This document shows, piece by piece, positions 30,844 to 58,641 of a stretch of DNA of 64,000 nucleotides. Below the pieces are notes generated by a model. It searched no databases. It was not told the DNA's origin and saw only the letters and a program-made list of their open reading frames with translations. This DNA comes from Paracoccaceae bacterium (GTDB lineage: Bacteria > Pseudomonadota > Alphaproteobacteria > Rhodobacterales > Rhodobacteraceae). A program made the translations under genes and the position numbers. Location of the stretch: the NCBI GenBank assembly GCA_037190175.1, contig JBBCJM010000004.1, positions 3,164 to 67,163 of the forward strand, given 5' to 3'. Positions within the stretch are counted from its first letter, which is position 1; each line of letters begins with the position of its first letter.

Positions 30844-32427
30844 TCAGGCCGTGCCGGTGGGGCCGGGAACGCGGTCCACCAGGTCGATCTCCATCCGCGC
30901 CAGCGCGAGCAGAAGGTCGGCCCGCACCCCCGCGCTGCCGGGATCGTCCCAGAGGTTGACGTATTCGCCCGGGTCGGTCTCCAGGTCGTAGAGTTCCCCG
31001 TCCTCCGCCCCGTCATAGAGCGTCAGTCGCCAGCGTTTGCCGGCCAGGGTGTGGACGCGCGGCGGGCGGCCCAGCCGGCGGTCGGTGCGCTGGTTCTCGT
31101 ACTGGATCAGGGCGAAGTCCCGCACCGCCGTCCCCGCCATGGCGGGGCCCAGCGGCAGGCCCTGCAACCCGGCGCAGGGCTCGACCATCGCCCGGTCCAG
31201 GATCGTCGGCCCGATGTCCATGGTCGATCCGACCTCTTCCGTCACCCTGCCGCCGGGCCGGGCGGGATCGCACCAGATGAAGGGCACGCGGATCACCTGG
31301 CGATAGGGCTCGCTCCCCTTCAGCAGCAGCCGGTGGTCGCCCAGGTTGTCGCCGTGGTCCGAGGTGAAGGCGACCACCGTGTCCTCGGCCAGGCCCAGCG
31401 CCCGCAGTTCCGCCAGGATGGCGCCCACCGCATCGTCGATCATGGTGATCATGCCGCAGGTCAGGGCGCGCACCTCCTGCGCCTCGCGCGCGGTGCAGGC
31501 GATGGTGCGGGTGCCGCCGAGATTGGCCTTGCCGGCCGCCCGCTGTTGCAGCGCATCGCGGACGGCGGGCGACATCTGCCAGTCGTTGCGGGCGAAGGCG
31601 TCGGGGATCTCCATCTCGTCGGGGTCGTACATGTCCCAGTACCGCCCGGGCGGGTTGAAGGGATGGTGCGGGTCGGGGAACGAGACGAAGAGGAAGAACG
31701 GCTCGGCCCGGCCGGCCCGGCGGCGCAGGTAGTCCACCGCCTCGCCCGCGACATAGCTGGTGGGATAAAGCTCCTCCGGCAGCGCGGTGCGGACGGCCTG
31801 GGGGCAGGAATAGCCGTGCGGCAGCTGGTTCTGCGGCCCCGTCAGCCTGTCGGCATCCGGCCGCCGCGCCAGCAGCCAGCGCCGGTAATGGCCGACCAGG
31901 CTGTCGCCGTGGTTGGTCACCAGCGCCACATGGCCGAAGCCGTGGAACGGCAGCGGCACATCCGCCGCGGGGTCCTGCCAGTGGCTGGGGCGTTCCACAT
32001 CGTAGACGGGGTGGCGCAGGTCGTGGCGGATCGCCTCCTCCAGTCCCGGCGAGGGCCGGTGAAACCCCTCGCGCAGCGGGGGCCGGTCGACCGCCGGGGG
32101 GTTGTCGGTGATGTTGCCCAGATGGCTTTTCCCGACCAGCGCGGTGTCGTAGCCGGCATCGGCCAGAAGTTCCACGAAGGTGACGTTGCGCCGGTCCAGC
32201 GGGATGCCGTTGTGCCGCACCCCGTGCGAGGACGGCATCCGCCCGGTCATGAAGCTGGCGCGGTTGGGCTGGCAGACCGGGCTGTTGACGAAGAACCGCT
32301 CGAACCGGGTGCCGCGGTCGGCCAGCCCGTCGATATGCGGCGTGCGCACCACCGGATGGCCATAGCAGCCCAGGAAATCCGCCCGCAGCTGGTCGGTCAT
32401 GATGACGACGAAGTTCGGGCGGGGCAT
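30844..32427 (-). CDS. Sulfatase family protein (arylsulfatase-like), no signal peptide
   Basis: MPRPNFVVIMTDQLRAD..., SPVCQPNRASFMTGR (C-x-P-x-R formylglycine motif, Cys52), GKSHLG. 527 aa. Confidence 0.9.
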   Translation of the reverse strand: MPRPNFVVIMTDQLRADFLGCYGHPVVRTPHIDGLADRGTRFERFFVNSPVCQPNRASFMTGRMPSSHGVRHNGIPLDRRNVTFVELLADAGYDTALVGKSHLGNITDNPPAVDRPPLREGFHRPSPGLEEAIRHDLRHPVYDVERPSHWQDPAADVPLPFHGFGHVALVTNHGDSLVGHYRRWLLARRPDADRLTGPQNQLPHGYSCPQAVRTALPEELYPTSYVAGEAVDYLRRRAGRAEPFFLFVSFPDPHHPFNPPGRYWDMYDPDEMEIPDAFARNDWQMSPAVRDALQQRAAGKANLGGTRTIACTAREAQEVRALTCGMITMIDDAVGAILAELRALGLAEDTVVAFTSDHGDNLGDHRLLLKGSEPYRQVIRVPFIWCDPARPGGRVTEEVGSTMDIGPTILDRAMVEPCAGLQGLPLGPAMAGTAVRDFALIQYENQRTDRRLGRPPRVHTLAGKRWRLTLYDGAEDGELYDLETDPGEYVNLWDDPGSAGVRADLLLALARMEIDLVDRVPGPTGTA

Positions 32428-32437
32428 GATCCCTCCT

Positions 32438-33901
32438 TCAGCCCAGGATGACGTTGACCGCCTTTTCCTCGGTATAGGACAGCAGTTCGTCCAGGCTTTC
32501 CTCTCGGCCGTGGCCGCTGTTCCTGTAGCCGCCGAAGGGCACGCCCCTGTAGCGGCCGGCGGTGCCGTTCACCCAGACATGGCCCGATTGCAGGCGCCGC
32601 GCGGTGTGCAGCGCCCGGCCCAGGTCGCGGGTCCAGACGGCGCCGGTCAGGCCGTAGTGCAGCGAGTTGGCGATGGCCACCGTTTCCTCCAGATCGCTCC
32701 ACCGGAAGACGGCGAGCACCGGCCCGAACACCTCCTCGCGGGCAAGCTGCATCTCGGGCGTCACATCGGCGAAGATCGTCGGTTCCACCCAGAACCCCCG
32801 CGCGAACTGGGCGCCGGGGGGCCTTTTGCCGCCGGTCACCAGCCGCGCGCCCTCGGCCCGGGCGGCCTCGATATGCGACATGACCTTCTCGTACTGCGCC
32901 CGCGAGTTGACCGGCCCCATCTGCGTGTCGTCCGCCATGGGGTCGCCCACCCGCAGCCGCGACACCCTGCCGGCCAGGTCGGCCAGGAAGCGGTCGTGCA
33001 GATCCTCGTGCAGGAACAGCCGGGTGATCGAGCTGCAGGACTGGCCCGTGACGCCCAGGTTCATCCCCGCCACGGCGGCGGCCAGCGCCCGGTCGTAGTC
33101 GGCGTCGGGAAAGACGCTCATCGGGTTCTTGCCGCCCAGTTCCAGCGTGACCGCCTTCACCGCGCCCTCGGCCGCGATCCGCTGCACCGCCATCCCGGTC
33201 TGGACCGAGCCGGTGAAGGCCAGCCGCTTGACCCGCGGATGGCGGGCCAGCGCCGCCCCGGCCTCGGCCCCCGTGCCGGTGACGATGTTCAGCACCCCGG
33301 GCGGCAGCACCTCGGCGGCCATCCGGGCCAGGATGCCGGCCGACAGCGGGCTCTGGTCCGAGGGCTTCCCGACCATCGTGTTGCCGGCGATCAGCGGGGC
33401 GGCCATGCGCGAGGCCGCGAAGTTGATGGGGTGGTTGAACGGCATGATCCGCCCCACCACGCCATAGGGCTCGCGCAGGGTGAAATGCAGGTTGCCGGCG
33501 GTGGCGGGGATCGTGCTGCCCTTCAGCTCGCCCCCCAGCCCGGCGAAGAGCCGGATCTGCGCGCTGGCCTTGCCGACATCGGCGCGCATCTTGGCGATGG
33601 TGTTGCCGGTGTCCAGAACCTCGATCCGCAGGATGTCGGCGGCGCGCGCCTCCAGCGCATCGGCCACGCGGTGCAGATAGCCGGCGCGTTCCGCGATGGA
33701 GAGCGCCGCCCAGCCGGGCTGCGCCTTCTCGGCCGCCGCCACCGCCCGGTCCACGTCCTGCGCGGTTCCCTGCGGCACGCGGCCGAGCACTTCCTCGGTA
33801 GCGGGATCGATGGAGTCCATCCAGCGGCCGCTCTCGCTGGCCACCAGATCTCCGCCGATCAGCATGGGCATGTCGCCGATGGGGCCCCGGGACTCGGTCA
33901 T
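32438..33901 (-). CDS. Aldehyde dehydrogenase family protein
   Basis: 487 aa. ELGGKNP (catalytic Glu), GQSCSSITR (catalytic Cys), FTGSV. Confidence 0.95.
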   Translation of the reverse strand: MTESRGPIGDMPMLIGGDLVASESGRWMDSIDPATEEVLGRVPQGTAQDVDRAVAAAEKAQPGWAALSIAERAGYLHRVADALEARAADILRIEVLDTGNTIAKMRADVGKASAQIRLFAGLGGELKGSTIPATAGNLHFTLREPYGVVGRIMPFNHPINFAASRMAAPLIAGNTMVGKPSDQSPLSAGILARMAAEVLPPGVLNIVTGTGAEAGAALARHPRVKRLAFTGSVQTGMAVQRIAAEGAVKAVTLELGGKNPMSVFPDADYDRALAAAVAGMNLGVTGQSCSSITRLFLHEDLHDRFLADLAGRVSRLRVGDPMADDTQMGPVNSRAQYEKVMSHIEAARAEGARLVTGGKRPPGAQFARGFWVEPTIFADVTPEMQLAREEVFGPVLAVFRWSDLEETVAIANSLHYGLTGAVWTRDLGRALHTARRLQSGHVWVNGTAGRYRGVPFGGYRNSGHGREESLDELLSYTEEKAVNVILG

Positions 33902-33911
33902 CGTGATGCTC

Positions 33912-34670
33912 CTACGGGGACCGCGCCGCCTTGACCCGGGACTTCAGGTACTGCCACGGCCGGTCGGCGTCGAAGTTCTCGGTGGCGTTCAGCGCCAGTT
34001 CGTCCTCGTTCATCGCCGTGATCGGGCCCAGCGTCATGCCCGCGAACTGCGCCCGGGCGTTGATGTTGACATAGACCGTGCGGACCGTCGCCTCCTTGGC
34101 CGAGCGGCCCACCACCGTGTTGCCGTGCCCGCGCATCAGCACCGCCGGATGGTCGCCCAGGCATTCCGCCAGCGAGGCCGCCAGCTTCGCGTCGCGCACC
34201 AGCATTCCCTTCTGGGCGTGATCGCGGTTGGCGTCGCGGATCTCGAACAGCGGCGTCTCGGCGGGCAGGAAGCCGGCCTGCGCCACCACCGGCCGCAAGG
34301 GCACGTTGGCGATGCCGAAGGGGATGGTGGCCAGGTCGTGGGTATGGATGACGCACTGGACCTCCGGCCGCACCTTGTAGATGCCGCTGTGGATGAACCG
34401 CTCTCCGTTCAGCCGCGGGGCGTCGGGATCGACGGGTTTCGCCTCCATGTCGAGCTCGACGATATCGGCCCGCGAGACCAGCGCCGGCGGCATCGCGCGC
34501 GGCATGAAGAACCGTGCGGGGTCGCGCGCCGATCTCACCGTCACGTGGCCGAAACTGTCCAGGATGCCCTCGTTGGCCAGGATATGGCTGGCGGTGATGA
34601 GGTCGGCGATGCGTTCCTCGTCCGAGGCGGCCCATCCGGCCTTGGTGTCGTGGCCCGGTCGTGTTCCCAA
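33912..34670 (-). CDS. Class II aldolase/adducin family protein
   Basis: TTG start preceded by AGGAGGAG. GHVTVR, VIHTHD, MRGHGNTVVG. 252 aa. Confidence 0.85.
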   Translation of the reverse strand: MGTRPGHDTKAGWAASDEERIADLITASHILANEGILDSFGHVTVRSARDPARFFMPRAMPPALVSRADIVELDMEAKPVDPDAPRLNGERFIHSGIYKVRPEVQCVIHTHDLATIPFGIANVPLRPVVAQAGFLPAETPLFEIRDANRDHAQKGMLVRDAKLAASLAECLGDHPAVLMRGHGNTVVGRSAKEATVRTVYVNINARAQFAGMTLGPITAMNEDELALNATENFDADRPWQYLKSRVKAARSP

Positions 34671-34697
34671 GATCTCCTCCTGTTCTGTCCGTGCCCG

Positions 34698-35099
34698 CTA
34701 GAGCGAAGCCATGGCCTCGGCGCCCGCGATCGCCGCGGCCTCGTCGTCGTCGCCGATGCCCGAGACGCCGATGCCGCCCACGATCTGGCCCTTGTGGAAC
34801 AGCGGGATCCCCCCGGCGACAGCGACCGCCCCGGGATAGGTCAGGAAACCCGGCTTCTCCTTCACCCGCTCCTGCAGGGTCGCCGACGGGCGTTCGCGGA
34901 AGGCGGCGGTGCGGGCCTTGCCCACCGCCATGTCGACGGAATTGCCCGGCTGGTGGTCGGGCCGTTCGAGGTAGAGCAGCAGCCCGGCATCGTCCACCAC
35001 CGCGATGGTCGCCGGCTTGACGATCTCGACGGCCTTCCTGCGGGCGGCGTCCACGATGATCGCCACGTCTTCCAGCGTCAGGCAGGTCTTGGTGCGCAT
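34698..35099 (-). CDS. GlcG/HbpS-like (DUF336) heme-binding-type protein
   Basis: Internal ATG at 35099: MRTKTCLTLEDVAIIVDAARRKAVEIVKPATIAVVDDAGLLLYLERPD...GGIPLFHKGQIVGGIGVSG. Confidence 0.8.
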   Translation of the reverse strand: MRTKTCLTLEDVAIIVDAARRKAVEIVKPATIAVVDDAGLLLYLERPDHQPGNSVDMAVGKARTAAFRERPSATLQERVKEKPGFLTYPGAVAVAGGIPLFHKGQIVGGIGVSGIGDDDEAAAIAGAEAMASL

Positions 35100-35112
35100 G
35101 TTCCGTTCCTTT

Positions 35113-36564
35113 TCAGCGGGCGGCCCTGGCCCGCGCCTCTTCGATGATCGCCGCGGCCGCCTCGGCCACGATGCCCGCCCCCTGCACCTGGCCGGCAATC
35201 GCCCGGGCCTGGCGGTCATAGTCCTGCCAGAGCGCGCGGATGCCCGCGAAGTCGAAGGTGGTGGGCATGAGGGTCCTGCCCAGCACGACATCCATCACCG
35301 CCCCGGTGTCGAGGTCGAAGTCGCGCCCGGTCTCGGCCTTCAGCGCGGCGTTGAGGTCGGGGATCGGCTCGCCCGCCATATGCGCGCGCGCCATCCGGCC
35401 CAGCACGGCATGGCCCACGCGGAACGGCACCCCGTGTTCGTAGACCAGCATGTCATGCGCCTCGCTCGATCCGGCATAGTCGAGCACCGCCTTGCGCCGC
35501 ATCTCCTCCAGGTTGAACTCGCCGTCGCGGATGACCTCGGCCATGTAGCGGGTGAAGGCCACGATATCCCACGCGGCCTGGTAGAGCGTGCCGGACTGGT
35601 AGATTGCCTCGGACCCTTCGGAAGGGCTGCCCGCGGCGGCGGACATCTCGCCCGACAGGCGGTTGGCGGCCAGGATGGCGCCGCCGATGACCGACTGGAA
35701 CCCGAAGGGCACCCGGGCATGGGGCAGGGCGCTGCTGCCGCCGGTGTGGTGGCCGGCGGGGGCGAAGAGGTCGAACTCGGGCGTCATCCAGATCCGCAGG
35801 TCCTGCGCCAGCCGGGCCAGATCCACGGCCAGCGCGGTCAGGCCGAAGAACGGCTCGGAGAACTGGGTGTTCATCCAGATCCCGTCGCGCCGCAGCTGGG
35901 CCCGCCGGGTGAAGCCCAGCCGCCTGGCCACCGTGTCGAACAGCGCCCGCACCTCGGACCGCGAGCCCAGGAAGGAGGGGCCGTAGTCCAGCCGGCGGTC
36001 GATCTCTTCCAGCCGGTCGATGTGGTCGAACATCCGCGGCACCCAGGACATCAGGTATTCGCCCACCGTGGCAAAGCCCGAATGCTGCAGGTGGTGGTAG
36101 TTGGGGGTCAGCGCCTCCATCAGCGGCTCGGCGCGGTCCAGCAGGATGCGGATCATCGCGCCGACTTCCTGCCGCGCCTCGTGCAGGGTCTGGCGGAAAT
36201 AGAGCCGCGGCAGGTAGTTGCGCAGGCTTTCCCCCCGGTTGCGGCCCAGGTGCAGCCAGGCGGCGTGCTGCGGCCCGGCCTGTTCGCGCATCCAGGCTTC
36301 GCGCTGGGCGACGATATCGCCGGGCGGCACGGAGAAGTCGCGGCTCGCCAGCCCGTCGAGGTTCGCCAGCACCCCCTTCAGCAGCACCTGCGCCGTGTCC
36401 TCCGGCGTCAGGCCCAGGTCGGCGGCGGTCAGCACATAGGCCAGGTCGCTGACCAGCATGTGCCGCGCCGTGAAGCGGCTGGCGCGCGTTTCGATCTCGT
36501 TCACCGCGCGGACATAGGACGGGGCCTTCGCCCCGGGGCTCCTGCCCTTGTTTTCCTCGGCCAT
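35113..36564 (-). CDS. Aspartase/fumarase-superfamily protein, argininosuccinate-lyase-like, with degenerate catalytic-loop signature
   Basis: 483 aa. PNYHHLQHSGFATVGEYL aligns to ASL GYTHLQRAQP. LARLAQDLRIWMTPEFDLF...TGGSSALPHARVP aligns to ASL LSRLAEDL....SEFGF...TGSSxMPQKKNP. SD GGGGGAAGGGAG. Confidence 0.7.
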   Translation of the reverse strand: MAEENKGRSPGAKAPSYVRAVNEIETRASRFTARHMLVSDLAYVLTAADLGLTPEDTAQVLLKGVLANLDGLASRDFSVPPGDIVAQREAWMREQAGPQHAAWLHLGRNRGESLRNYLPRLYFRQTLHEARQEVGAMIRILLDRAEPLMEALTPNYHHLQHSGFATVGEYLMSWVPRMFDHIDRLEEIDRRLDYGPSFLGSRSEVRALFDTVARRLGFTRRAQLRRDGIWMNTQFSEPFFGLTALAVDLARLAQDLRIWMTPEFDLFAPAGHHTGGSSALPHARVPFGFQSVIGGAILAANRLSGEMSAAAGSPSEGSEAIYQSGTLYQAAWDIVAFTRYMAEVIRDGEFNLEEMRRKAVLDYAGSSEAHDMLVYEHGVPFRVGHAVLGRMARAHMAGEPIPDLNAALKAETGRDFDLDTGAVMDVVLGRTLMPTTFDFAGIRALWQDYDRQARAIAGQVQGAGIVAEAAAAIIEEARARAAR

Positions 36565-36579
36565 GGCTCCCTTCCCCCT

Positions 36580-36996: not shown

Positions 36997-37025
36997 CGGT
37001 TTCGCTCCTCCAGCGGGCAGGCGGT

Positions 37026-38399: not shown

Positions 38400-39811
38400 G
38401 CCGGCTGCGCCCCCTGCGCGTCGGGGGCCCGCGCCCCCCGCAGGATCGCCATCAGCGGCTCCAGCGAGGCCAGGCGTTCGAGCCCCAGCACCATCTCGAC
38501 GACCTCGGCCGCCCGGGCGTCGGGCAGCGCGCCGGCCACGCAGTCCTGGAACTTGCGGATCACCGTCGCGGCGTCCGCTGGGGCGGCGGGGCTGCCGGGC
38601 GGGTCGGCCACGTCGATCTCGATGCGCCCGCCGTCGTGCAGCTCCGCCACCAGACGGGCGGGAAAGCCGCTCAGCCCCCGCGCGAGCGGCTCGGGCCGGA
38701 CGGTGATGGCGTCCATGATGCGCAGGATCTCGGGGTCGTTCCAGCGGTCGCCCGCGAACTGCCGGGGCGTCAGCTCGCCGTCCACCAGCGCGGCGGCGAT
38801 CAGGAAATAGAAGCTGTGGTCGGCCGTTTCCCTGTCCTGCGGCCGGCGGTAGCCCGGCTGCGACTGCACCCGCACCACCGGCGCGTCGGGCAGCAGGGCC
38901 AGCAGCGAGCGCAGCCGGCCGCGGTCGCCCAGCCGTCGCCGCAGCTCGATGGCCGCGGCGACGGCGGACTGGCCGGTGCCGATGCAGGGGAAGATCTTCA
39001 CCGCCACGTCCAGGATGCGCGGCGCGTCACCCGGCGCGGGGACCAGCGTGGCCAGGTCGGCGCCGGGCATCAGCGTGGCGGGCAGGCCCTGCGGCCCCTC
39101 CAGCGCGGCCAGCGGGCCGGTCAGCCCGCCCTCGGCCAGCAGCGCGCCCAGCATCCCCTGCACGGCCACCAGCGCGTTCGAGACCGCCTTGGCCTGCGAT
39201 ATCCCGCCCTTGCGCAGCGCGGCCAGCGGATGGGCATAGGTGGCCCCCAGCGCCAGCGCATGGGCCAGCCGGTCCGGCGGAAGGCCCATCAGCCGCCCCG
39301 CCATCGCCGCGCCGGCCAGGCCCGAGGCGCCCACATGGTCCCAGGGCGAGGCGGTGTCCATCAGGTCGGCCAGCCGGCAATAGACCTCGTACCCCGCCAA
39401 AATCGCGGCCAGCGCGGCCTTTCCGCCCAGCCCGCGCTCCTCGGCCACCGCCAGCGCGACCGGGATGTTGTCGCTGGGATGCCCGCCGCCTCCGGCAAGG
39501 CTCCAGTAGAAGTCGTTGAGGTCCAGCGCCCGGACGCAGGCGCCGTTGACCAGCACCGCCGAGGTGGCCGGAGCCCGGTCCGCGCGGCCGATCACGCTGG
39601 CCGCCGGATGCGCGCCCAGCCCGGCCAGCAGGCCGCGCACCGGCCCCACCGCCGGATGCCCCAGCCCGGCGATGGCGCAGCCGAGGGTGTCCAGCAGGAA
39701 GAGCCGCGCCCGTTCCACCGCCGCGGCCGGCCAGGTTTCCAGGCCCGCGCCGGCAACCCAGCCGGCCAGCCGCCCCAGCACCGCGTCCTGTGTAGCCGCC
39801 TTTGCGTCCAT
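38396..39811 (-). CDS. MmgE/PrpD family protein, paralog 2
   Basis: 471 aa. LLDTLGCAIAG, DLNDFYW....GGHPSD, GYEVYCRL. ATGA overlap with paralog 1. Confidence 0.9.
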   Translation of the reverse strand: MDAKAATQDAVLGRLAGWVAGAGLETWPAAAVERARLFLLDTLGCAIAGLGHPAVGPVRGLLAGLGAHPAASVIGRADRAPATSAVLVNGACVRALDLNDFYWSLAGGGGHPSDNIPVALAVAEERGLGGKAALAAILAGYEVYCRLADLMDTASPWDHVGASGLAGAAMAGRLMGLPPDRLAHALALGATYAHPLAALRKGGISQAKAVSNALVAVQGMLGALLAEGGLTGPLAALEGPQGLPATLMPGADLATLVPAPGDAPRILDVAVKIFPCIGTGQSAVAAAIELRRRLGDRGRLRSLLALLPDAPVVRVQSQPGYRRPQDRETADHSFYFLIAAALVDGELTPRQFAGDRWNDPEILRIMDAITVRPEPLARGLSGFPARLVAELHDGGRIEIDVADPPGSPAAPADAATVIRKFQDCVAGALPDARAAEVVEMVLGLERLASLEPLMAILRGARAPDAQGAQPA

Positions 39812-39857
39812 GCCCTCGCCCGGACCGCACCCTGACGGGGCGCCCCGGTCTCCTCCC

Positions 39858-41543
39858 TCAGTGCCCTCGCTTCGTCACCTTGCCCTCGCGAAGATCCCGC
39901 TCTGCCAGCGCCGGATCGCGGGACGCCGGATCGCCGTAGCCCCCCCCGCCCGGCGTCAGCACGGTCAGCACGTCGCCCGCCTCCATGGTGATGCCGGCCG
40001 CCTTGCAGGGCAGCTTCTCCACCCGGCCGTCGGTGCGGGTCAGGACGAACTCGCCCGGCCTGGCCTCGCCGCCGCCGAAGATGCCGCGGGGCGAGAAGCG
40101 GTGACGCTCGGCGCGGACCGAGAGGTCCAGCGGGCTCAGCGCGCGGATGTCGCGGCGCAGGCCCAGCCCGCCGCGGAACCGGCCCTCGCCGCCCGAATCC
40201 GCCCGCAGTTCGTAGCGTTCCACCCGCAGCGGGAACTGCATCTCCATCGCCTCGATGGGGGTGTTGTTCAGGTTGGCGACCGGGAAATCCACCACGTCCG
40301 GCCCGTCCGACCCGTTGCGCCCGCCCCAGCCGCCCGGCAGCGGTTCGGACTTGTAGAAGAACTTGCCGGTCGCGGGGTCGGTGCCGGACATGCGGTAGAT
40401 CGCGACCTGCCCGTGGTCCTGCGCCACCGCCCGGTCGGGCAGCGCCTCGCCCAGCGCCCCCATGATCACGTTCGAGATCCGCGCCTGCGTCTCGGGCCGC
40501 GAGCTGACCGACCCAGGGGGGTTGGGGTTGAGCAGCGAGCCTTGGGGCAGGATGATCTCCACCGCGTCATAGCAGCCCTCGTTGTTGGGGATCTCGTCGC
40601 GCGGGTCGAGAAATATCTTCAGCGCAGCATAGATGGCCGACAGCGAGTTGGCGACCGGGCAGTTCAGCGAGCCGCGGACCTGCCGCGACGTGCCGGTGAA
40701 GTCGACGGTCAGCGTCTCGCCCTGCACGGTGATCGCCACGCGGATCGGGATCGGAGTGTCGTCGAACCCGTCGTCGTCCAGCACGTCCTCGTAGTCATAG
40801 ATGCCGTCCGGGATCTCGGCGATCAGGCGGCGGAACCCGACCCGCGTGCGCTCGATCAGCTCCGAGACCGCCTGGTGGACCGTCTCCTCGCCGAAGCGCG
40901 TCAGCGTCTCGTCGTAGCGCACCGCGCCGGTGCTGAGCGAGGCCAGCTGCGCCCGCACGTCGCCCACCACCGAATCCGGCTTGCGCGAGTTGGCCTTGAT
41001 GATCGCCATCAGCGTCTGGTTCATCTCGCCCGCCGTCATCAGGTGCATGGGCGGGATCAGCAGCCCTTCCTGGAAGATCTCGGTGGACAGCGGCGGGGTG
41101 CTGCCCGGCAGCATCCCGCCCACGTCGGTCTGGTGCGCATAGCTGCAGCCGAAGCCCGACAGCCGCCCCTCGCGGTAATAGGGCATGACCAGGATGAAGT
41201 CGGGCGGATGCGAGCCGCCGTAATAGGCGTGGTTCAGGATGAACACGTCGCCCGGCTGCATCCTGTCGGGCGGCATCCACTTCAGCACCTCCTTGACCGC
41301 CACGCTCGATCCGGCCAGCTGCACCGGCAGCGAGACCGCCTGGGCGATCAGCCGGCCCGAGGGGTCGAACAGCGAGCTCGAGGCGTCGCCCACCTCGCGG
41401 ATGGCCTGCGAATGGGCCGTGCGCTCCAGCGTCGTCTGCATCTCCTGCGCGATGCCGTTCAGCGCGTTCTTCACCAGCTCGACGGTGACGACATCGACGG
41501 GCCGGGCCGCCGCCTGCGGATGGACTGCGACTGCCACGCTCAA
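39858..41543 (-). CDS. hyuB: Hydantoinase B/oxoprolinase family protein
   Basis: 561 aa. VTVELVKNALNGIAQEMQTTLERTAHSQAIREVGDASSSLFD is typical of HyuB. The TTG start overlaps the hyuA stop (TTGA); a GTG two codons downstream is an alternative. Confidence 0.9.
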   Translation of the reverse strand: MSVAVAVHPQAAARPVDVVTVELVKNALNGIAQEMQTTLERTAHSQAIREVGDASSSLFDPSGRLIAQAVSLPVQLAGSSVAVKEVLKWMPPDRMQPGDVFILNHAYYGGSHPPDFILVMPYYREGRLSGFGCSYAHQTDVGGMLPGSTPPLSTEIFQEGLLIPPMHLMTAGEMNQTLMAIIKANSRKPDSVVGDVRAQLASLSTGAVRYDETLTRFGEETVHQAVSELIERTRVGFRRLIAEIPDGIYDYEDVLDDDGFDDTPIPIRVAITVQGETLTVDFTGTSRQVRGSLNCPVANSLSAIYAALKIFLDPRDEIPNNEGCYDAVEIILPQGSLLNPNPPGSVSSRPETQARISNVIMGALGEALPDRAVAQDHGQVAIYRMSGTDPATGKFFYKSEPLPGGWGGRNGSDGPDVVDFPVANLNNTPIEAMEMQFPLRVERYELRADSGGEGRFRGGLGLRRDIRALSPLDLSVRAERHRFSPRGIFGGGEARPGEFVLTRTDGRVEKLPCKAAGITMEAGDVLTVLTPGGGGYGDPASRDPALAERDLREGKVTKRGH

Positions 41544-43627
41544 GCCTCCACGCTGATCACGATGTTCTCCAGCTCGTCGATCTCCACCGCGCAGCGGGGC
41601 GGGATCACGGTGGTCGATCCGTATTCCTCGACGATGGCCGGGCCAGCGAAGCGGTGGCCGGGCAGCAGATCCTCGCGGCGATAGACGGCGACCTGCTGCG
41701 GGGCGGTCCCGTTGGGGAACAGCGCCATGCGCGAGCCCGCCGCCGGGGCGGCGCCCTGGCCGTGCCCCCGCCCCGCGTGCAGCGCCACCACGTCGGTCTT
41801 GCGCAGCGCGGTCATCCGCAGCGAAAGGATTTCGATCTCGCCCTCGGGGTCGTGGTAGCGGTACTGCATCTGGTGCTGCTCGTCGAACTGGCGCTTCAGC
41901 TCGGCCCGCCAGCCCTCGGCATCGAGGCCCGCCAGCCCGGCGATGGAAACGGTCAGCTCGTACCCCTGCCCGACATAGCGCATGTCCATCGAGGGCTCGA
42001 GGCTGAGCGTTGCGGTCGCCGAGCCTTCCAGCGCCGCGAGGGCGCCCCCCGCCTCCTCGCGCAGCTCGTCCAGCGTCCGTTGCAGCCGGGCGCCGTCCAG
42101 CTCGGACAGCACGCCACCGAACTGGCGCTGGAAGTCGTAGCGCGAATCCGCGATCAGCGCGCCGAAGGCGTTGACGTTGCCGGGCGCGGGGGGGATCACC
42201 ACCTGCGGGATGCCGGCCTGCCGGGCCAGGGTGACCGCGTGCACCGGCCCCGCGCCGCCGAAGCCGATCAGGGTGCAGGTGCGCGGGTCGATGCCGCGCT
42301 GGGTGGTGACCAGCCGGATCGCCGCCTCCATGTCGAAGTTGGCGATGCGCAGGATGCCCAGCGCCGTCTCGGTGGTGGTCATCCCCAGCCGGTCGCCCAG
42401 CCGCTCCTGGATCGCGGCGCGGGCGCCCTCGATATCCAGCCGCATCTTGCCGCCGATCAGCTCGTCCGGGTAGTAGCCCACCACCGCGTTGGCGTCGGTG
42501 ATGGTGGGCTGGGTGCCGCCGCGGTCATAGCAGATCGGACCGGGGCGCGAGCCGGCGCTGCGCGGCCCCACGTGCAGCAGCCCGCCCTCGTCCATCCAGG
42601 CGATGGTGCCGCCGCCGCCGCTGATCTCGATCAGGTCGACCACCGGCGCGCGCACCGGCAGCCGTTCCACGAACAGGGTGTTCTGCGTCTTGAAGGTGCC
42701 GTTCTCGATATAGGCGGCCTTGGCGGTGGTGCCGCCCATGTCCAGCGCGATGACCCGCGGCAGCCGGCTGGCCTCGGCGATATGCGCCGCGGCGATCACG
42801 CCGCAGGCCGGGCCGGATTCCACGGTCTGCGACGGGCGCGCCGCCGCGTCGCGGATCGCCATCGTCCCGCCGCCGGAATGGATGACGTCCAGCCGGCCGC
42901 GGAAGTCGTGCTCGTCGCGCAGGCGCCGCTCCAGATCCTCGTAGTAGGTCGTCACCTCGGGCTTCACATAGGCGTCGATGACCGTGGTGCTGGCGCGTTC
43001 GTACTCGCGGAACTCGGGGTTCACCGCCGAGGAGATCGACACGAAGGCCTGCGGATAGATCTCGGCGATCAGCTCGGCCACCCGCTGCTCGTGCCGGGGG
43101 TTCAGGAACGAGAACAGGAACACCACCGCGATGGCCTGGCAGCCCGCATCGCGCAGCGTTGCGACCGCGGCGCGCACCGCGTCCTCGTCCAGCGGCACCA
43201 GCACCCGGCCCTCGGCATCCACCCGCTCGGGCACCTCCAGCCGCAGGTCGCGCGGCACCAGCGGCTTGGCCTTGTCGTAGAGCATGTCGTAGAGCCGGTC
43301 GCGGCGGGTGCGCTGGATCTCCAGCACGTCGCGGAAGCCCGCGGTGGTGATCAGCCCCACCCGCGCCCCCTTCTTCTCGGCGACCACGTTGGCGGCGACG
43401 GTGGAGCTGTGCACCAGATGCTCGACATCCGCGAAGGTCGCGTTCATCTGCGACAGCGCCTCGACCCCCGCGGCGATCACGCCGTCGGCGAAGGTGGGTG
43501 GCGTCGAGGGCACCTTGGAGAACAGGAGCCGGCCGGCCCCGTCGTCCCAGACGGCGCCGTCGGTGAAGGTGCCGCCCACGTCGATGCCGATGCGCAGCGC
43601 GCGCCGGGTTTGCTTCTGACCTGTCAT
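41540..43627 (-). CDS. hyuA: Hydantoinase/oxoprolinase family protein (A subunit)
   Basis: Internal ATG at 43627: MTGQKQTRRALRIGIDVGGTFTDGAV..., DMGGTTAK, GFGGAGP. 695 aa. The upstream extension in the track is junk. Confidence 0.9.
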   Translation of the reverse strand: MTGQKQTRRALRIGIDVGGTFTDGAVWDDGAGRLLFSKVPSTPPTFADGVIAAGVEALSQMNATFADVEHLVHSSTVAANVVAEKKGARVGLITTAGFRDVLEIQRTRRDRLYDMLYDKAKPLVPRDLRLEVPERVDAEGRVLVPLDEDAVRAAVATLRDAGCQAIAVVFLFSFLNPRHEQRVAELIAEIYPQAFVSISSAVNPEFREYERASTTVIDAYVKPEVTTYYEDLERRLRDEHDFRGRLDVIHSGGGTMAIRDAAARPSQTVESGPACGVIAAAHIAEASRLPRVIALDMGGTTAKAAYIENGTFKTQNTLFVERLPVRAPVVDLIEISGGGGTIAWMDEGGLLHVGPRSAGSRPGPICYDRGGTQPTITDANAVVGYYPDELIGGKMRLDIEGARAAIQERLGDRLGMTTTETALGILRIANFDMEAAIRLVTTQRGIDPRTCTLIGFGGAGPVHAVTLARQAGIPQVVIPPAPGNVNAFGALIADSRYDFQRQFGGVLSELDGARLQRTLDELREEAGGALAALEGSATATLSLEPSMDMRYVGQGYELTVSIAGLAGLDAEGWRAELKRQFDEQHQMQYRYHDPEGEIEILSLRMTALRKTDVVALHAGRGHGQGAAPAAGSRMALFPNGTAPQQVAVYRREDLLPGHRFAGPAIVEEYGSTTVIPPRCAVEIDELENIVISVEA

Positions 43628-43629
43628 GA

Positions 43630-44493
43630 TTACCTGCGCACGCCGTCGACGATGGCCATCGTCTTGTATTCCCAGAGATGCGGCTCGATCAGCACCTCCT
43701 GCGCGGCCTTCACGACCTCGTGCAGCGGAGCGGCGAGCCAGTTGGCCTTCTGGTATTCGAAGGCCTGCTCCACCGGCACGCGCCTGGCCCCCGCCCAGGT
43801 CACGAAGATGCGCAGGAGCCAGGCCAGCTGCGGATCCTGCTTGGCCAGCTCGAAGGTCATCGGCGTCGGGCCGTATTCGACCAGCACCAGCCGCCCGCCC
43901 GGCTTGATCAGCCGGGTCAGAGCGCGGAACTCGGGCACGTAGTCGTCGCAGTGGTGCATCTGGCTGGCGATCACCGCGTCGAACTCGCCCTCGGCATAGT
44001 TCGAGGCGAATTCGCGGTAGATCCCCCATTGCCGGGTGGTGCTGTTGCGGGCCTTGACATAGGGGCGCACCTCCAGCGGCACGACCTCCACCCCCGCGGG
44101 CAGGACCTCGCGCGCCACGTCGAGCAGGCCGGTGGGCTCCAGCGCCTCGGCGATCAGCAGCACCCGCCCGCCCGGGGGCACGCGCGCCTTGATGAAGCCC
44201 ATCTGGTGGAATTCGCGCTCGGGCTTCAGGAAGGCGGCGGTGGAGAACCGCTTTCCGAACAGCGGCTGCCGGTAATATTCGGCCATTTCCGCGAGGGATT
44301 CGAAAAGCGTATCGTCCCCTTCCGTCAGGCCGGTCCTGTCCCGGCCCGGATCCAGTTCGAGCCAGGGCTGGGAACTTCGAAAGACCTCATCGGTGATGAT
44401 CGTCCTGGTTTCGTCCGGCTTGCCCATGATATCCATCCCCCGGACCGCTTTGGCCATTTCTGGCCGAAGCCGAAAGGTCCGGCCGTTTTCCAT
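43630..44493 (-). CDS. Class I methyltransferase-fold protein with degenerate SAM-binding motif I; function unknown
   Basis: 287 aa. FDAVIASQMHHCDDYVPEFRALTRLIKPGGRLVLVEY is a typical Methyltransf_11-like post-I region. At the motif I position it reads GGRVLLIAEALEPTG instead of VLD.GCG.G. SD GGGAGAA. Confidence 0.6.
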   Translation of the reverse strand: MENGRTFRLRPEMAKAVRGMDIMGKPDETRTIITDEVFRSSQPWLELDPGRDRTGLTEGDDTLFESLAEMAEYYRQPLFGKRFSTAAFLKPEREFHQMGFIKARVPPGGRVLLIAEALEPTGLLDVAREVLPAGVEVVPLEVRPYVKARNSTTRQWGIYREFASNYAEGEFDAVIASQMHHCDDYVPEFRALTRLIKPGGRLVLVEYGPTPMTFELAKQDPQLAWLLRIFVTWAGARRVPVEQAFEYQKANWLAAPLHEVVKAAQEVLIEPHLWEYKTMAIVDGVRR

Positions 44494-55460: not shown

Positions 55461-55471
55461 GGGTCTGGTCC

Positions 55472-57564: not shown

Positions 57565-57569
57565 GGCCT

Positions 57570-58637: not shown

Positions 58638-58641
58638 CTTT

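What the first reader, a model, noticed from the sequence alone, without database searches (positions are those of the whole stretch)
30844..44493. Eleven-gene operon (MTase-fold, HyuA, HyuB, 2x MmgE/PrpD, GlcG, divergent ASL-like lyase, GlcG, class II aldolase, ALDH, cytoplasmic sulfatase) that I cannot map to any named pathway
Seen: eleven minus-strand CDS with junctions from -4 to +46 nt, consistent with one transcription unit. A divergent LysR gene sits at 44692. The operator-containing block upstream of the operon recurs in front of the adjacent TTT transporter (see 44509 and 49277).

Established family knowledge:
- HyuA/HyuB-type enzymes do ATP-dependent opening of lactams/hydantoins/5-oxoproline, or carboxylation of ketones.
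- MmgE/PrpD members are dehydratases, decarboxylases (cis-aconitate) or, as I recall, the iminodisuccinate epimerase of Agrobacterium.
- Aspartase/fumarase-superfamily enzymes are C-N/C-O lyases (ASL, EDDS lyase, iminodisuccinate lyase).

Inference: pairing PrpD-type proteins with a superfamily lyase resembles aminopolycarboxylate (iminodisuccinate/EDDS-like) breakdown. Adding Hyu A/B, an aldolase, an ALDH, a sulfatase and a carboxylate-type TTT importer suggests catabolism of an anionic, possibly cyclic-amide and/or sulfated N-carboxyalkyl compound. The substrate is unknown. This is my best candidate for an undescribed system in the window.
Basis: partly seen in the sequence, partly recalled or inferred. 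Interest (0 to 1): 0.7.

Follow-up and report, generated by a model that had tools for sequence, protein, structure and literature searches.

The report
Uncharacterised lactam-acid breakdown operon
This is a real eleven-gene operon, with a matching transporter and regulator, whose core recurs in uncultured soil bacteria and matches no described pathway; it most likely breaks down an unidentified ring-shaped, nitrogen-containing acid.

Summary
Eleven co-directional genes lie at 30844-44493 with junctions of -4 to +46 nt. A divergent LysR gene follows, and a 58-nt operator block recurs in front of the adjacent TTT transporter.

All family calls are right, but none of the ten proteins scanned reaches an NCBIfam cut-off and the methyltransferase-fold (MT-fold) protein matches no NCBIfam model.

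The core set recurs in soil MAGs in shuffled order: MT-fold protein, HyuA, HyuB, divergent aspartase/fumarase lyase, two PrpD paralogs, GlcG, class II-aldolase-fold enzyme and LysR. The same GATAG-N7-CTATC box sits before the MT-hyuAB genes and before the aldolase-fold genes. The sulfatase is found only here.

- The PrpD paralogs carry 2-methylcitrate-dehydratase-type motifs, not the iminodisuccinate-epimerase tyrosine.
- The "aldolase" is closest to a hydroxypyridine-dicarboxylate decarboxylase.
- The MT-fold protein belongs to a very rare family, always translationally coupled to HyuA, with a degenerate SAM loop.

Best guess (about 0.4): ATP-dependent opening of an imported cyclic amide carboxylate, then beta-elimination, (de)hydration, decarboxylation and aldehyde oxidation. 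The substrate is unknown. I rate it a new variant of a known kind, of moderate interest.

The parts
43630..44493 (-). Methyltransferase-fold protein (probable start 44427), a conserved partner of HyuAB
   Evidence: Only a weak Pfam Methyltransf_11 hit, to the C-terminal half of the domain. AF2 model pLDDT 82.6; Foldseek finds class I MTases at E about 1e-8. Gly-rich motif I is replaced by invariant E-A-L-E-P. The family has 41 clusters in 5.8 billion proteins, and 7 hits at E<=1e-30 among 1.84 billion representatives. It always sits directly upstream of HyuA, with a 4-nt overlap or a 2-nt gap.
41540..43627 (-). HyuA-type ATP-dependent hydantoinase/oxoprolinase subunit
   Evidence: Pfam Hydant_A_N, Hydantoinase_A and Hydant_A_C. 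Caprolactamase alpha 515 bits, below the 1000 cut-off. PDB N-methylhydantoinase 458 bits; the chain 6yra labelled 5-oxoprolinase 374 bits. 56-81% identical to MT-linked HyuA elsewhere, at most 42% to any plasmid HyuA.
39858..41543 (-). HyuB-type subunit
   Evidence: Pfam Hydantoinase_B 583 bits. Caprolactamase beta 244 bits, below the 1000 cut-off. Its start overlaps the HyuA stop by 4 nt.
38396..39811 (-). MmgE/PrpD paralog 1, dehydratase-like motifs
   Evidence: Pfam MmgE_PrpD_N and _C. Ortholog in L034 at 64%. Keeps D88, H99, K198 and K266; H85 is Arg; the Tyr145 loop is deleted; WDHV motif.
37026..38399 (-). MmgE/PrpD paralog 2, dehydratase-like motifs
   Evidence: Pfam. Orthologs at 47-51% in L034, L008 and L024, each next to a GlcG1-type gene. 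Its motifs match 2-methylcitrate dehydratase 5mvi.
36580..36996 (-). GlcG/HbpS-like (DUF336) paralog 1
   Evidence: Pfam HbpS-like 91 bits. Its pairing with PrpD2 is conserved.
35113..36564 (-). Divergent aspartase/fumarase-superfamily lyase, an unnamed subfamily
   Evidence: Pfam Lyase_1 49.6 bits. XcbC model 158 bits (cut-off 575) and ArgH 118 bits (cut-off 279.5). 23-26% identical to ASL and XcbC. Motifs GRNRGES, PNYHHLQHSG and GGSSALPHA(K/R)VPF are invariant in the family. At least 120 clusters at 57-66% identity, from metagenomes and soil MAGs.
34698..35099 (-). GlcG/HbpS-like (DUF336) paralog 2
   Evidence: Pfam HbpS-like 94 bits. A GlcG gene next to the aldolase-fold gene recurs in L002 and L032.
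33912..34670 (-). Class II-aldolase-fold metal enzyme, probably a decarboxylase
   Evidence: Pfam Aldolase_II 90.5 bits. Best PDB hit 2z7b at 157 bits, E 5e-45; 2z7b is Mn-dependent 3-hydroxy-2-methylpyridine-4,5-dicarboxylate decarboxylase (PMC11841055). 3,4-dihydroxyphthalate decarboxylase model 79 bits, below 200. In L014 and L015 the LysR box precedes homologous genes.
32438..33901 (-). NAD(P)-dependent aldehyde dehydrogenase
   Evidence: Pfam Aldedh 532 bits. Best NCBIfam models are BADH (463) and HpaE (450), all below cut-off. Homologs at 44-48% near the lyase in 6 loci.
30844..32427 (-). Cys-type sulfatase without an evident signal peptide; accessory and specific to this window
   Evidence: Pfam Sulfatase 173 bits. 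C-Q-P-N-R motif in the translation. Closest PDB chains are 4upi, 4upl and 4uph, labelled sulfatase family protein. No homolog in any related locus.
44520..44577 (.). Operator block 1, between lysR and the operon, with palindrome GATAGGAAGCACCTATC at 44560-44576
   Evidence: Conserved in the LysR/MT intergenic regions of L014, L015 and L034.
44692..45594 (+). Divergent LysR-type regulator
   Evidence: Pfam HTH_1 and LysR_substrate. Orthologs at 66-69% in the same position in L014, L015 and L026, and at 53% in L034.
45634..47691 (-). TctA membrane component with a C-terminal TctB-like domain in the same ORF
   Evidence: Pfam TctA 425 bits at residues 23-444; TctB 28.7 bits (cut-off 29.1) at residues 523-665.
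48130..49182 (-). TctC-type periplasmic solute receptor
   Evidence: Pfam TctC 32.7 bits. Weak PDB match to a terephthalate-binding protein.
49287..49344 (.). Operator block 2, upstream of tctC, in the same orientation as block 1, with palindrome GATAGGTTGAATCTATC at 49327-49343

Best explanation
This is a LysR-controlled catabolic regulon for an unidentified anionic cyclic amide (a lactam or imide bearing carboxylates).

**Proposed steps, all inferred**
1. The TTT system (TctC plus the fused TctA-B) imports the compound.
2. HyuA/HyuB, working with the tightly coupled MT-fold protein as a third, probably non-methylating component, spends ATP to open the ring. This is what 5-oxoprolinase, N-methylhydantoinase and caprolactamase do.
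3. The product carries a 2- or 3-substituted succinate backbone, which is the substrate class of both PrpD enzymes and aspartase/fumarase-superfamily lyases.
4. The divergent lyase removes the C2 substituent, most likely the nitrogen, by beta-elimination.
5. The two dehydratase-type PrpD paralogs hydrate or dehydrate the unsaturated polycarboxylate, as 2-methylcitrate dehydratase does.
6. The Mn/Zn/Fe-type class II-aldolase-fold enzyme decarboxylates an enol or beta-keto (or ortho-hydroxy) acid.
7. The ALDH oxidises the resulting aldehyde to a central-metabolism acid.
8. The two GlcG/DUF336 proteins are accessory, possibly binding a reactive aldehyde.
9. The sulfatase is a strain-specific addition that widens the substrate range to a sulfate ester.

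**Shown:** gene content, operon structure, the conserved gene set and the operator. **Inferred:** every chemical step and the order of the steps.
For: - Operon structure and family assignments.
- The same set (MT, HyuA, HyuB, lyase, PrpD1 ortholog at 64%, PrpD2 ortholog at 50%, GlcG, aldolase-fold gene, LysR) occurs in locus L034 in a different order.
- Subsets occur in L014, L015, L019, L023, L025 and L032.
- Six further MT-family hits have the same longest-contig length as a lyase-family hit, which suggests shared contigs.
- The GATAG-N7-CTATC box precedes the operon and tctC here. In other genomes it precedes MT-hyuAB and the aldolase-fold genes.
- HyuA scores best against lactam-opening enzymes (N-methylhydantoinase 458 bits, the 6yra chain 374 bits, caprolactamase-alpha model 515 bits). 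Ketone carboxylases score lower (306 and 231 bits), and no gamma-subunit gene is present (subunit criteria in PMC5214803).
- PrpD genes accompany MT-hyuAB in L030, L033, L034 and the window.
- All characterised PrpD-family substrates share a substituted C4-dicarboxylate backbone (PMC12290011).
- The lyase keeps the catalytic Ser-Ser loop and the C2 histidine.
- Precedents link HyuAB with lactam carboxylates: lactam opines on pTiEU6, next to a LysR gene and mmgE (PMC6733357); a HyuA at 40.7% identity in a Ti-plasmid opine-type region; predicted 2-oxoindoleacetyl-CoA lactamases that would yield an arylsuccinyl product (PMC5214803, PMC8360864).
Against: - No enzyme reaches an equivalog cut-off, so every step is extrapolated from family-level chemistry.
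- The lyase lacks the signature Lys and Asn that bind the substrate carboxylate. Its substrate may therefore not be a classical succinyl compound.
- The decarboxylase's only close characterised relative acts on a hydroxypyridine dicarboxylate.
- Several related loci carry extradiol dioxygenases, CoA ligases, enoyl-CoA hydratases or O-methyltransferases. These point to aromatic chemistry rather than to an aliphatic amino-polycarboxylate.
- In most lyase loci the partners are an AMP-binding ligase and an Asp/Glu-racemase-family protein, not HyuAB. Neither is present anywhere in this window.
- GlcG function is unknown (PMC8153426).
- There is no transcript or biochemical evidence.
Confidence: 0.4

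Rival explanations
1. (Hetero)aromatic acid catabolism. The regulon degrades a hydroxylated aromatic or N-heteroaromatic di- or tricarboxylate, for example a pyridone/hydroxypyridine dicarboxylate, an oxindole-type auxin catabolite, or a lignin-derived carboxy-phenolic. The aldolase-fold enzyme acts as an ortho-hydroxy-acid decarboxylase. The ALDH oxidises an aromatic or ring-fission aldehyde. HyuAB opens a pyridone or oxindole lactam. The PrpD enzymes and the lyase process tricarboxylic ring-fission products, as OMA hydratase and carboxymuconate cycloisomerase do.
For: - The decarboxylase is closest to HMPDdc (157 bits; PMC11841055), then to the 3,4-dihydroxyphthalate decarboxylase model.
- The ALDH scores almost as well on HpaE as on BADH.
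- A two-domain VOC (glyoxalase/dioxygenase-superfamily) gene lies two genes downstream of the box-preceded aldolase-fold gene on the same strand in L014 and L015. A homolog lies in L018 and a LigAB gene in L032.
- Caffeoyl-CoA-type O-methyltransferase, AMP-binding ligase, ECH and MaoC genes surround the lyase elsewhere.
- An FAD_binding_3 ring hydroxylase follows MT-hyuAB in L030.
- A DUF336 gene is reported in a chloroaniline degradation cluster (PMC8153426).
- A DesA/LigM-family O-demethylase and a PcaQ-like regulator lie next to tctC in the window.
- The aspartase/fumarase superfamily includes carboxymuconate cycloisomerases.
Against: - The window cluster has no oxygenase or dioxygenase, and none of those families has a homolog in the window.
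- The DesA/LigM-like gene is absent from all related loci.
- The operator block is oriented like block 1 relative to tctC, not relative to the demethylase gene.
- Aromatic genes are common neighbours in these soil genomes in any case.
- Aromatic pyridones are not known HyuAB substrates (my knowledge).
Confidence: 0.25
2. One reading: breakdown of an aminopolycarboxylate or N-carboxyalkyl (opine-like, iminodisuccinate/EDDS-like) compound and its lactam. HyuAB opens the lactam (for example succinopine lactam), the PrpD paralogs epimerise stereocentres, and the lyase cuts the C-N bond to release fumarate.
For: [quoted passage not shown]
- A Ti-plasmid HyuA at 40.7% identity lies in an operon with an FAD oxidoreductase and ABC transporter genes.
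- IDS epimerase is the best PDB hit of PrpD1 (76.7 bits).
- The lyase is ASL-like and keeps the Ser-Ser loop.
- TTT transporters take polycarboxylates.
- An octopine/nopaline-dehydrogenase-family gene lies 10 kb away.
Against: - Both PrpD paralogs lack the second catalytic base (Tyr145) of IDS epimerase and methylsuccinate isomerase, and carry dehydratase-type motifs (PMC12290011).
- The lyase lacks the signature Lys and Asn and is no closer to the 508-aa chains that I believe include EDDS lyase than to ordinary ASLs.
- This scheme gives no role to the conserved decarboxylase, the ALDH or GlcG.
- The carriers are free-living soil MAGs, not Agrobacterium, and neither the lyase nor the MT-fold family has a homolog at the thresholds used (E 1e-30 and 1e-10) in 72,556 plasmids.
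Confidence: 0.15
3. A mosaic. The eleven genes are co-transcribed but serve two or more unrelated functions, for example a lactamase module, a lyase/decarboxylase module and an arylsulfatase. No single pathway exists.
For: - The modules occur separately elsewhere: MT-hyuAB without the lyase in L030, L031 and L033.
- The lyase occurs with a CoA ligase and a racemase-family gene but without hyuAB in most loci.
- The sulfatase is unique to the window.
- A 46-nt gap separates hyuB from prpD1.
Against: - The full core set recurs together in shuffled order in L034, and partly in L014, L015, L023, L025 and L032.
- One conserved operator precedes MT-hyuAB, tctC and the decarboxylase genes across genomes.
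- No internal terminator-like sites were found.
Confidence: 0.1

Closest known systems
ATP-dependent lactam/hydantoin hydrolases of the HyuA/HyuB family (5-oxoprolinase, N-methylhydantoinase, caprolactamase CapAB; proposed opine-lactam and 2-oxoindoleacetyl-CoA lactamases)
   Same: Same three HyuA domains and the HyuB domain, hyuA-hyuB order with overlapping stop and start, and subunit lengths typical of the hydrolase branch (PMC5214803). It sits in a catabolic operon with a LysR gene and a PrpD-family gene, as on pTiEU6 (PMC6733357).
   Different: Scores are far below the caprolactamase equivalog cut-offs (515 and 244 against 1000) and identity to any plasmid HyuA is at most 42%. It has an obligate upstream MT-fold partner that no described Hyd (alpha-beta), Acx (alpha-beta-gamma) or Apc (alpha-alpha'-beta-gamma-epsilon) enzyme has (PMC5214803).
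Iminodisuccinate / EDDS degradation (PrpD-family IDS epimerase plus aspartase/fumarase-superfamily C-N lyase)
   Same: It pairs PrpD-family proteins with a superfamily lyase. IDS epimerase is the top PDB hit of PrpD1.
   Different: Only 22-25% identity. The Tyr145 loop is absent and His85 is Arg. The lyase signature Lys and Asn are replaced. There are additional HyuAB, decarboxylase, ALDH and GlcG genes.
2-Methylcitrate dehydratase PrpD
   Same: Shared R-x-L-D-x-N-D, GHPSD and DHV motifs, plus the conserved Asp, His and two Lys residues.
   Different: NCBIfam scores of 53-102 bits against cut-offs of 458-950. No prpB, prpC or acn genes nearby. There are two paralogs with separate orthologs elsewhere.
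XcbC, the phosphate-eliminating aspartase/fumarase-superfamily enzyme of bacterial coenzyme M synthesis
   Same: It is the best-scoring NCBIfam model for the lyase (158 bits). Both are ASL-like enzymes that depart from the canonical motifs (PMC9457059).
   Different: 26% identity. XcbC keeps the K-x-N of the signature but changes the Ser-Ser loop and the C2 histidine, which is the opposite pattern to this lyase. No phosphosulfolactate synthase gene is nearby, unlike Xaut_5052-5053.
HMPDdc (Mlr6791, PDB 2Z7B), Mn-dependent 3-hydroxy-2-methylpyridine-4,5-dicarboxylate decarboxylase of vitamin B6 degradation
   Same: It is the closest solved relative of the aldolase-fold protein (E 5e-45, 157 bits over residues 22-249). 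H-x-H and G-H-G motifs that may provide the metal-binding histidines are visible in the translation.
   Different: No other B6-pathway enzymes (pyridoxal and pyridoxate dehydrogenases, MHPC oxygenase) are in the cluster. Pyruvic oxime dioxygenases of the same fold are the next hits, at 50 bits (PMC11841055), so the reaction type is not settled.

Membership tests
Aspartase/fumarase superfamily (lyase 35113-36564) | Pfam Lyase_1 domain above the gathering score | tested here: met
   49.6 bits against 27.
Aspartase/fumarase superfamily (lyase 35113-36564) | Catalytic Ser in the mobile SS loop and the conserved C2 histidine | tested here: met
   GGSSALP and NYHHLQ are invariant in 22 family members and align with GSSIMP and KTHLQ of ASL.
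Aspartase/fumarase superfamily (lyase 35113-36564) | Full signature GSSxMPxKxN, with the carboxylate-binding Lys and Asn | tested here: not met
   The signature Lys position is Ala and the Asn position is Val. A Lys or Arg sits one residue later.
Argininosuccinate lyase ArgH | NCBIfam TIGR00838 equivalog cut-off | tested here: not met
   117.8 bits against 279.5. 23% identity to M. tuberculosis ASL.
XcbC (phosphosulfolactate phosphate-lyase) | NCBIfam NF052535 cut-off and a neighbouring phosphosulfolactate synthase gene | tested here: not met
   157.7 bits against 575. 26% identity with a different motif pattern. No ComA/XcbB-like gene in the cluster.
EDDS / iminodisuccinate C-N lyase | Closer to EDDS lyase than to ordinary ASLs | tested here: inconclusive
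   The 508-aa PDB chains 6g3d and 6rx8 score 68-70 bits against 74 bits for ASL 6iem. That 6g3d is EDDS lyase rests on my memory, because the tool labels it argininosuccinate lyase. No IDS lyase sequence was available.
IDS epimerase / methylsuccinate isomerase (two-base PrpD enzymes) | Catalytic His99 plus the second base Tyr145; His85, Asp88, His150, Lys198, Lys266 (PMC12290011) | tested here: not met
   Asp88, His99, Lys198 and Lys266 are present. His85 is Arg, the Tyr145 loop is deleted, and His150 is shifted (WDH) in both paralogs and their orthologs.
2-Methylcitrate dehydratase PrpD | NCBIfam equivalog cut-offs | tested here: not met
   Best scores 102 and 73 bits against cut-offs of 950 and 575. 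The motif pattern is nevertheless shared with 5mvi.
HyuA/HyuB ATP-dependent hydantoinase/oxoprolinase family | Hydant_A_N + Hydantoinase_A + Hydant_A_C and Hydantoinase_B domains in adjacent genes | tested here: met
   4-nt overlap between the two genes.
Caprolactamase CapAB | NCBIfam equivalog cut-offs | tested here: not met
   515 against 1000 (alpha) and 244 against 1000 (beta).
Acetone / acetophenone carboxylase | Gamma subunit gene (and alpha' for Apc), longer alpha subunit (PMC5214803), NCBIfam cut-offs | tested here: not met
   No gamma or alpha' gene in the operon. ApcC 336 bits against 1500. PDB scores are lower than for the lactamases.
SAM-dependent class I methyltransferase (43630-44493) | Rossmann-like MTase fold | tested here: met
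   AF2 pLDDT 82.6. Foldseek hits NovO, CouO, Coq5 and CmoA at E about 1e-8, TM 0.4-0.5.
SAM-dependent class I methyltransferase (43630-44493) | Glycine-rich motif I (E/DxGxGxG) that binds SAM | tested here: not met
   It is replaced by invariant (I/L)xEALEPxG. Pfam matches only profile positions 51-95 of Methyltransf_11. Actual SAM binding cannot be tested here.
Class II aldolase/adducin fold (33912-34670) | Pfam Aldolase_II; motifs expected to provide the three metal-binding histidines | tested here: met
   90.5 bits against 22.2. IHTHD and RGHGN motifs are visible in the translation; assigning them as the ligands is my reading, not an alignment result.
3,4-Dihydroxyphthalate decarboxylase PhtC / HMPDdc | Equivalog-level similarity | tested here: inconclusive
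   PhtC model 78.6 bits against 200. HMPDdc 2z7b 157 bits, E 5e-45. It is a relative, but orthology is not shown.
Type I (formylglycine) sulfatase (30844-32427) | Sulfatase domain and the C/S-x-P-x-R motif | tested here: met
   172.6 bits. C-Q-P-N-R in the translation. Arylsulfatase and choline-sulfatase equivalog cut-offs are not met (248 against 481; 198 against 433).
LysR-type regulon | Divergent LysR gene and a palindromic T-N11-A-type box upstream of the target promoters | tested here: met
   GATAG-N7-CTATC at 44560 and 49327 (0.00 expected). The box occupies the equivalent position in L014, L015 and L034. Binding itself was not tested.
Tripartite tricarboxylate transporter | TctC, TctB and TctA components | tested here: met
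   TctA 425 bits. TctC 32.7 against 27. The TctB-like domain scores 28.7 against 29.1, just below cut-off, and is fused to TctA.

The most novel reading that the evidence does not exclude
[quoted passage not shown] Together with a new aspartase/fumarase subfamily that has lost the signature Lys and Asn, two dehydratase-type PrpD enzymes and an HMPDdc-like decarboxylase, it forms a new pathway. Uncultured soil Alphaproteobacteria and Binatia would use this pathway to mineralise an abundant but overlooked N-heterocyclic carboxylate, for example an oxindole-type auxin catabolite, a tetrapyrrole-derived maleimide or lactam, or a pyridone dicarboxylate.
Probability: 0.25. Interest if true: 0.7.

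Novelty: new variant of a known kind. Interest (0 to 1): 0.5.

Why it matters
If the scheme is right, the cluster defines a catabolic route with no characterised member. Three of its protein subfamilies have no assigned function: the MT-fold partner of HyuAB, the lyase without the signature Lys and Asn, and the paired dehydratase-type PrpD proteins.

In the collections searched, the lyase and MT-fold families turned up only in metagenome-derived sequences and MAGs (Xanthobacteraceae, Hyphomicrobiales, Binatia), apart from this window, whose own source I could not identify. The substrate is therefore probably a soil or rhizosphere compound whose turnover is not yet attributed to any genes.

It would also give a testable context for DUF336/GlcG proteins, and a third architecture for the hydantoinase/ketone-carboxylase enzyme family.

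If instead it proves to be one more variant of aromatic or opine breakdown, the value is mainly better annotation of genes now labelled 'argininosuccinate lyase', 'methyltransferase' and '2-methylcitrate dehydratase'.

Tried and rejected
- **Source contig.** Exact look-ups of the window's lyase gave no contig on record, and cluster look-up gave no names or organism. The source organism remains unidentified.
- **ATG ORF 33898-34635.** It has no Pfam hit. It was rejected in favour of the overlapping TTG ORF in another frame.
- **XcbC membership.** This was suggested by the best NCBIfam hit. It was rejected after fetching Xaut_5053: 26% identity, the opposite motif pattern, and no phosphosulfolactate synthase neighbour.
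- **IDS-epimerase reading of the PrpD paralogs.** Rejected at motif level.
- **Arylmalonate decarboxylase literature.** I checked it because Asp/Glu-racemase and Amdase genes accompany the lyase or MT-hyuAB elsewhere. It offers TTT neighbours only and no pathway.
- **DesA/LigM-like gene as part of the regulon.** Judged unlikely. It is absent from all related loci and the operator is oriented towards tctC.
- **Plasmid collection.** No homolog of the lyase (E<=1e-30) or of the MT-fold protein (E<=1e-10).
- **MT-fold protein as an analogue of Apc-epsilon.** The paper gives no fold for epsilon, so this could not be tested.
- **Distant MT-fold relative P0170.** It is not linked to hyuAB, so it says nothing about function.
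- **Full-text searches.** Combinations of the gene families found no described cluster of this composition.
- **Pyruvic-oxime-dioxygenase reading of the aldolase-fold protein.** It stays possible but is much weaker (50 bits against 157 bits).

Full report
**1. The observation**

The window has about 71% G+C, so all six frames are full of long ORFs. I chose frames by Pfam and NCBIfam hits and by third-position GC.

Eleven minus-strand genes fill 30844-44493:

| Gene | Coordinates |
|---|---|
| MT-fold protein | 43630-44493 (probable start 44427) |
| HyuA | 41540-43627 |
| HyuB | 39858-41543 |
| PrpD1 | 38396-39811 |
| PrpD2 | 37026-38399 |
| GlcG1 | 36580-36996 |
| Divergent Lyase_1 protein | 35113-36564 |
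| GlcG2 | 34698-35099 |
| Class II-aldolase-fold protein | 33912-34670 (TTG start) |
| Aldehyde dehydrogenase | 32438-33901 |
| Sulfatase | 30844-32427 |

The ATG ORF 33898-34635 is in another frame and has no Pfam hit. No terminator-like hairpin lies on the minus strand inside the cluster.

The divergent LysR gene (44692-45594), a TctA gene with a fused TctB-like domain (45634-47691) and a TctC gene (48130-49182) follow.

Positions 44520-44577 and 49287-49344 are 78% identical over 58 nt. Each copy carries the palindrome GATAG-N7-CTATC, which occurs three times in the window against 0.00 expected. Both copies have the same orientation relative to the downstream minus-strand gene, namely the operon and tctC.

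**2. Is it a functional unit?**

*Lyase as bait.* The lyase has at least 120 homolog clusters at 57-66% identity, from metagenomes and MAGs. A scan of 185,579 species-representative genomes returned 27 loci. All are MAGs of Xanthobacteraceae, Hyphomicrobiales, other Alphaproteobacteria or Binatia.

I ran tblastn with the window's proteins against these loci, and clustered the loci's own ORFs. The lyase is accompanied by:
- a GlcG gene in nearly all loci;
- the aldolase-fold gene in most loci;
- TctC, TctB and TctA genes;
- an ALDH gene in six loci;
- the MT-HyuA-HyuB trio, at about 80% identity, in L014, L015, L019, L023 and L025;
- a PrpD2-type gene next to a GlcG1-type gene in L008 and L024;
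- a LysR ortholog at 66-69% in L014, L015 and L026.

In the majority of loci the partners are instead an AMP-binding ligase, an Asp/Glu-racemase-family protein, ECH and MaoC. None of these has a homolog in the window.

*MT-fold protein as an independent bait*:
- L034 carries aldolase-fold(-), LysR(-) | MT-HyuA-HyuB-lyase-PrpD2-GlcG1-PrpD1(+). This is the window's core set in another order, with separate orthologs of both PrpD paralogs at 50% and 64%.
- L032 carries MT-HyuA-HyuB-aldolase-fold-GlcG next to lyase-TctC-TctB-TctA.
- L030, L031 and L033 have the trio without the lyase. In L030 and L033 it comes with a PrpD gene.
- Six more MT-family hits have the same longest-contig length as lyase-family hits. 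This suggests further shared contigs, but it is an inference.

*The operator.* The palindrome sits in the LysR/MT intergenic region of L014, L015 and L034. In L014 and L015 it also sits between two divergent aldolase-fold genes. The flanking TCTnCGAGATTGAT element is conserved too.

*The sulfatase.* It has no homolog in any of the 34 related loci. I treat it as a strain-specific addition.

The core set and its operator are therefore conserved through rearrangement, which is good evidence for one regulon.

**3. What the individual proteins say**

*HyuA and HyuB.* They have the full domain set. They score best against ATP-dependent lactam and hydantoin hydrolases: N-methylhydantoinase 458 bits, the PDB chain 6yra (labelled 5-oxoprolinase) 374 bits, and the caprolactamase-alpha model 515 bits. 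Acetophenone and acetone carboxylases score lower, at 306 and 231 bits. The operon has no gamma or alpha' subunit gene, which are the criteria that PMC5214803 uses to separate carboxylases from hydrolases.

*The MT-fold protein.*
- It is unusual. Among 1.84 billion representative proteins, a profile of the family finds only 7 hits at E<=1e-30 and 50 at E<=0.001.
- Its model is confident (pLDDT 82.6) and has a class I methyltransferase fold.
- The glycine-rich SAM loop is replaced by an invariant EALEP. Pfam matches only the C-terminal half of the domain.
- Its gene always abuts hyuA, with a 4-nt overlap or a 2-nt gap.
- MT-linked HyuA proteins are 56-81% identical to each other but at most 42% identical to any plasmid HyuA.
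- I infer a third, probably non-methylating, component of this HyuAB clade. The dissociable epsilon subunit of acetophenone carboxylase is a loose precedent (PMC5214803).

*The two PrpD paralogs.* They keep Asp88, His99, Lys198 and Lys266 (IDS-epimerase numbering). They have Arg for His85, lack the loop carrying the second base Tyr145, and carry R-x-L-D-x-N-D, GHPSD and WDHV. The 2-methylcitrate dehydratase 5mvi shows the R-x-L-D-x-N-D, GHPSD and DHV elements of this pattern. By the mechanistic scheme of PMC12290011 they look like one-base (de)hydratases, not epimerases. That paper also notes that all known family substrates share a substituted C4-dicarboxylate backbone.

[quoted passage not shown] It keeps the Ser-Ser loop and the C2 histidine. 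The signature Lys and Asn are replaced by Ala and Val in every family member. It is neither ArgH nor XcbC.

*The aldolase-fold protein.* It is closest to PDB 2z7b (E 5e-45). PMC11841055 identifies 2z7b as the Mn-dependent 3-hydroxy-2-methylpyridine-4,5-dicarboxylate decarboxylase. Pyruvic oxime dioxygenases of the same fold are next, at 50 bits.

*GlcG/DUF336.* These proteins have no settled function. One member senses formaldehyde, and others sit in aldehyde-generating and chloroaniline-degrading clusters (PMC8153426).

*The sulfatase.* It has the C-x-P-x-R motif and no evident signal peptide. It is closest to PDB chains 4upi, 4upl and 4uph, labelled sulfatase family protein. From memory these belong to a group of promiscuous arylsulfatase / phosphonate-monoester-hydrolase enzymes.

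**4. Most likely mechanism, and rivals**

I commit, at about 0.4, to the following scheme. TTT imports an anionic cyclic amide. The MT-HyuAB enzyme opens the ring with ATP, giving a substituted-succinate-type amino-polycarboxylate. The lyase performs a beta-elimination. The PrpD pair carries out (de)hydration. The aldolase-fold enzyme decarboxylates. The ALDH oxidises the resulting aldehyde. The GlcG proteins and the sulfatase are accessory. Only the gene content, the linkage and the operator are shown. All of the chemistry is inferred from family-level knowledge.

The main rival (0.25) is a (hetero)aromatic acid pathway. It is supported by the following:
- the decarboxylase's relatives;
- the HpaE-like score of the ALDH;
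- a VOC-superfamily dioxygenase-like gene in L014, L015 and L018 and a LigAB gene in L032; in L014 and L015 the VOC gene lies two genes downstream of the box-preceded aldolase-fold gene;
- CoA-ligase, ECH and O-methyltransferase neighbours;
- the DesA/LigM-like and PcaQ-like genes beside tctC.

Against it, the window cluster has no oxygenase, and the demethylase gene is not conserved with the system.

It conflicts with the PrpD and lyase motifs, and it leaves the conserved decarboxylase without a role.

A mosaic of unrelated functions (0.1) is made unlikely by the shuffled-order conservation and by the shared operator.

**5. Comparison with the known, and novelty**

None of the ten proteins scanned reaches an NCBIfam cut-off, the MT-fold protein matches no NCBIfam model, and the solved structures found for the lyase, PrpD paralogs and MT-fold protein are remote. 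Full-text searches found no cluster of this composition. Neither the lyase (E<=1e-30) nor the MT-fold family (E<=1e-10) occurs in 72,556 plasmids.

The system is built from known enzyme families and has the ordinary architecture of a LysR-controlled catabolic operon. I therefore rate it a new variant of a known kind. It contains three uncharacterised subfamilies and an unknown substrate. Interest is 0.5: a worthwhile target for substrate discovery, but not a new kind of system.

Noticed in passing
window 49486-50940 (+): A DesA/LigM-family tetrahydrofolate-dependent aryl O-demethylase. It scores 562 bits on the syringate O-demethylase model and 522 bits on the vanillate/3-O-methylgallate O-demethylase model, both below cut-off. 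It is divergent from tctC. It is not conserved in any related locus.
   Followed up: partly
window 50952-52151 (-): A PcaQ-like LysR ORF of 399 aa with two HTH_1 matches, at residues 9-68 and from about residue 104. This could be an N-terminal duplication, a fused fragment or a mis-set start.
   Followed up: no
window 45634-47691 (-): The TctA domain (residues 23-444) and a TctB-like domain (residues 523-665) lie in one 685-aa ORF, in the order A then B, whereas the related loci have separate tctB and tctA genes. About 310-440 nt without an obvious gene separate it from tctC (47692-48129).
   Followed up: no
window 45498-45514: A third exact copy of the GATAG-N7-CTATC palindrome lies inside the 3' end of the lysR coding region. 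It could be autoregulatory or fortuitous.
   Followed up: no
window 3034-4887 (-), 6736-8520 (+), 17945-19837 (-): Three paralogous FAD_binding_2 flavoproteins of about 600 aa. Three genes of the same family sit directly next to MT-hyuAB in L031 and in a JGI contig, so a link to the system is possible.
   Followed up: no
window 54366-61579 (-): An octopine/nopaline-dehydrogenase-family gene, a D-2-hydroxyacid dehydrogenase and an ABC transporter (ATPase, permease, binding protein). This may be an opine-like or metallophore-related module about 10 kb from the operon.
   Followed up: no
L030 2736-8800: Next to a MT-hyuAB trio that has no lyase lie PrpD, MaoC, an Amdase-family gene, an Asp/Glu-racemase-family gene and an AMP-binding ligase. 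These are the same accessory families that surround the lyase in most Xanthobacteraceae loci.
   Followed up: partly
L014 14702-18028 and L015 14483-17204: The operator box precedes an aldolase-fold gene that is followed, on the same strand and close together, by an unannotated ~286-aa gene whose product starts with a hydrophobic, signal-peptide-like N-terminus (no Pfam hit) and by a two-domain VOC (glyoxalase/dioxygenase-superfamily) gene.
   Followed up: partly
window 29206-30780 (-): A DUF2125 gene starts 63 nt downstream of the sulfatase on the same strand. No terminator-like site was found between them, so read-through from the operon is possible.
   Followed up: no
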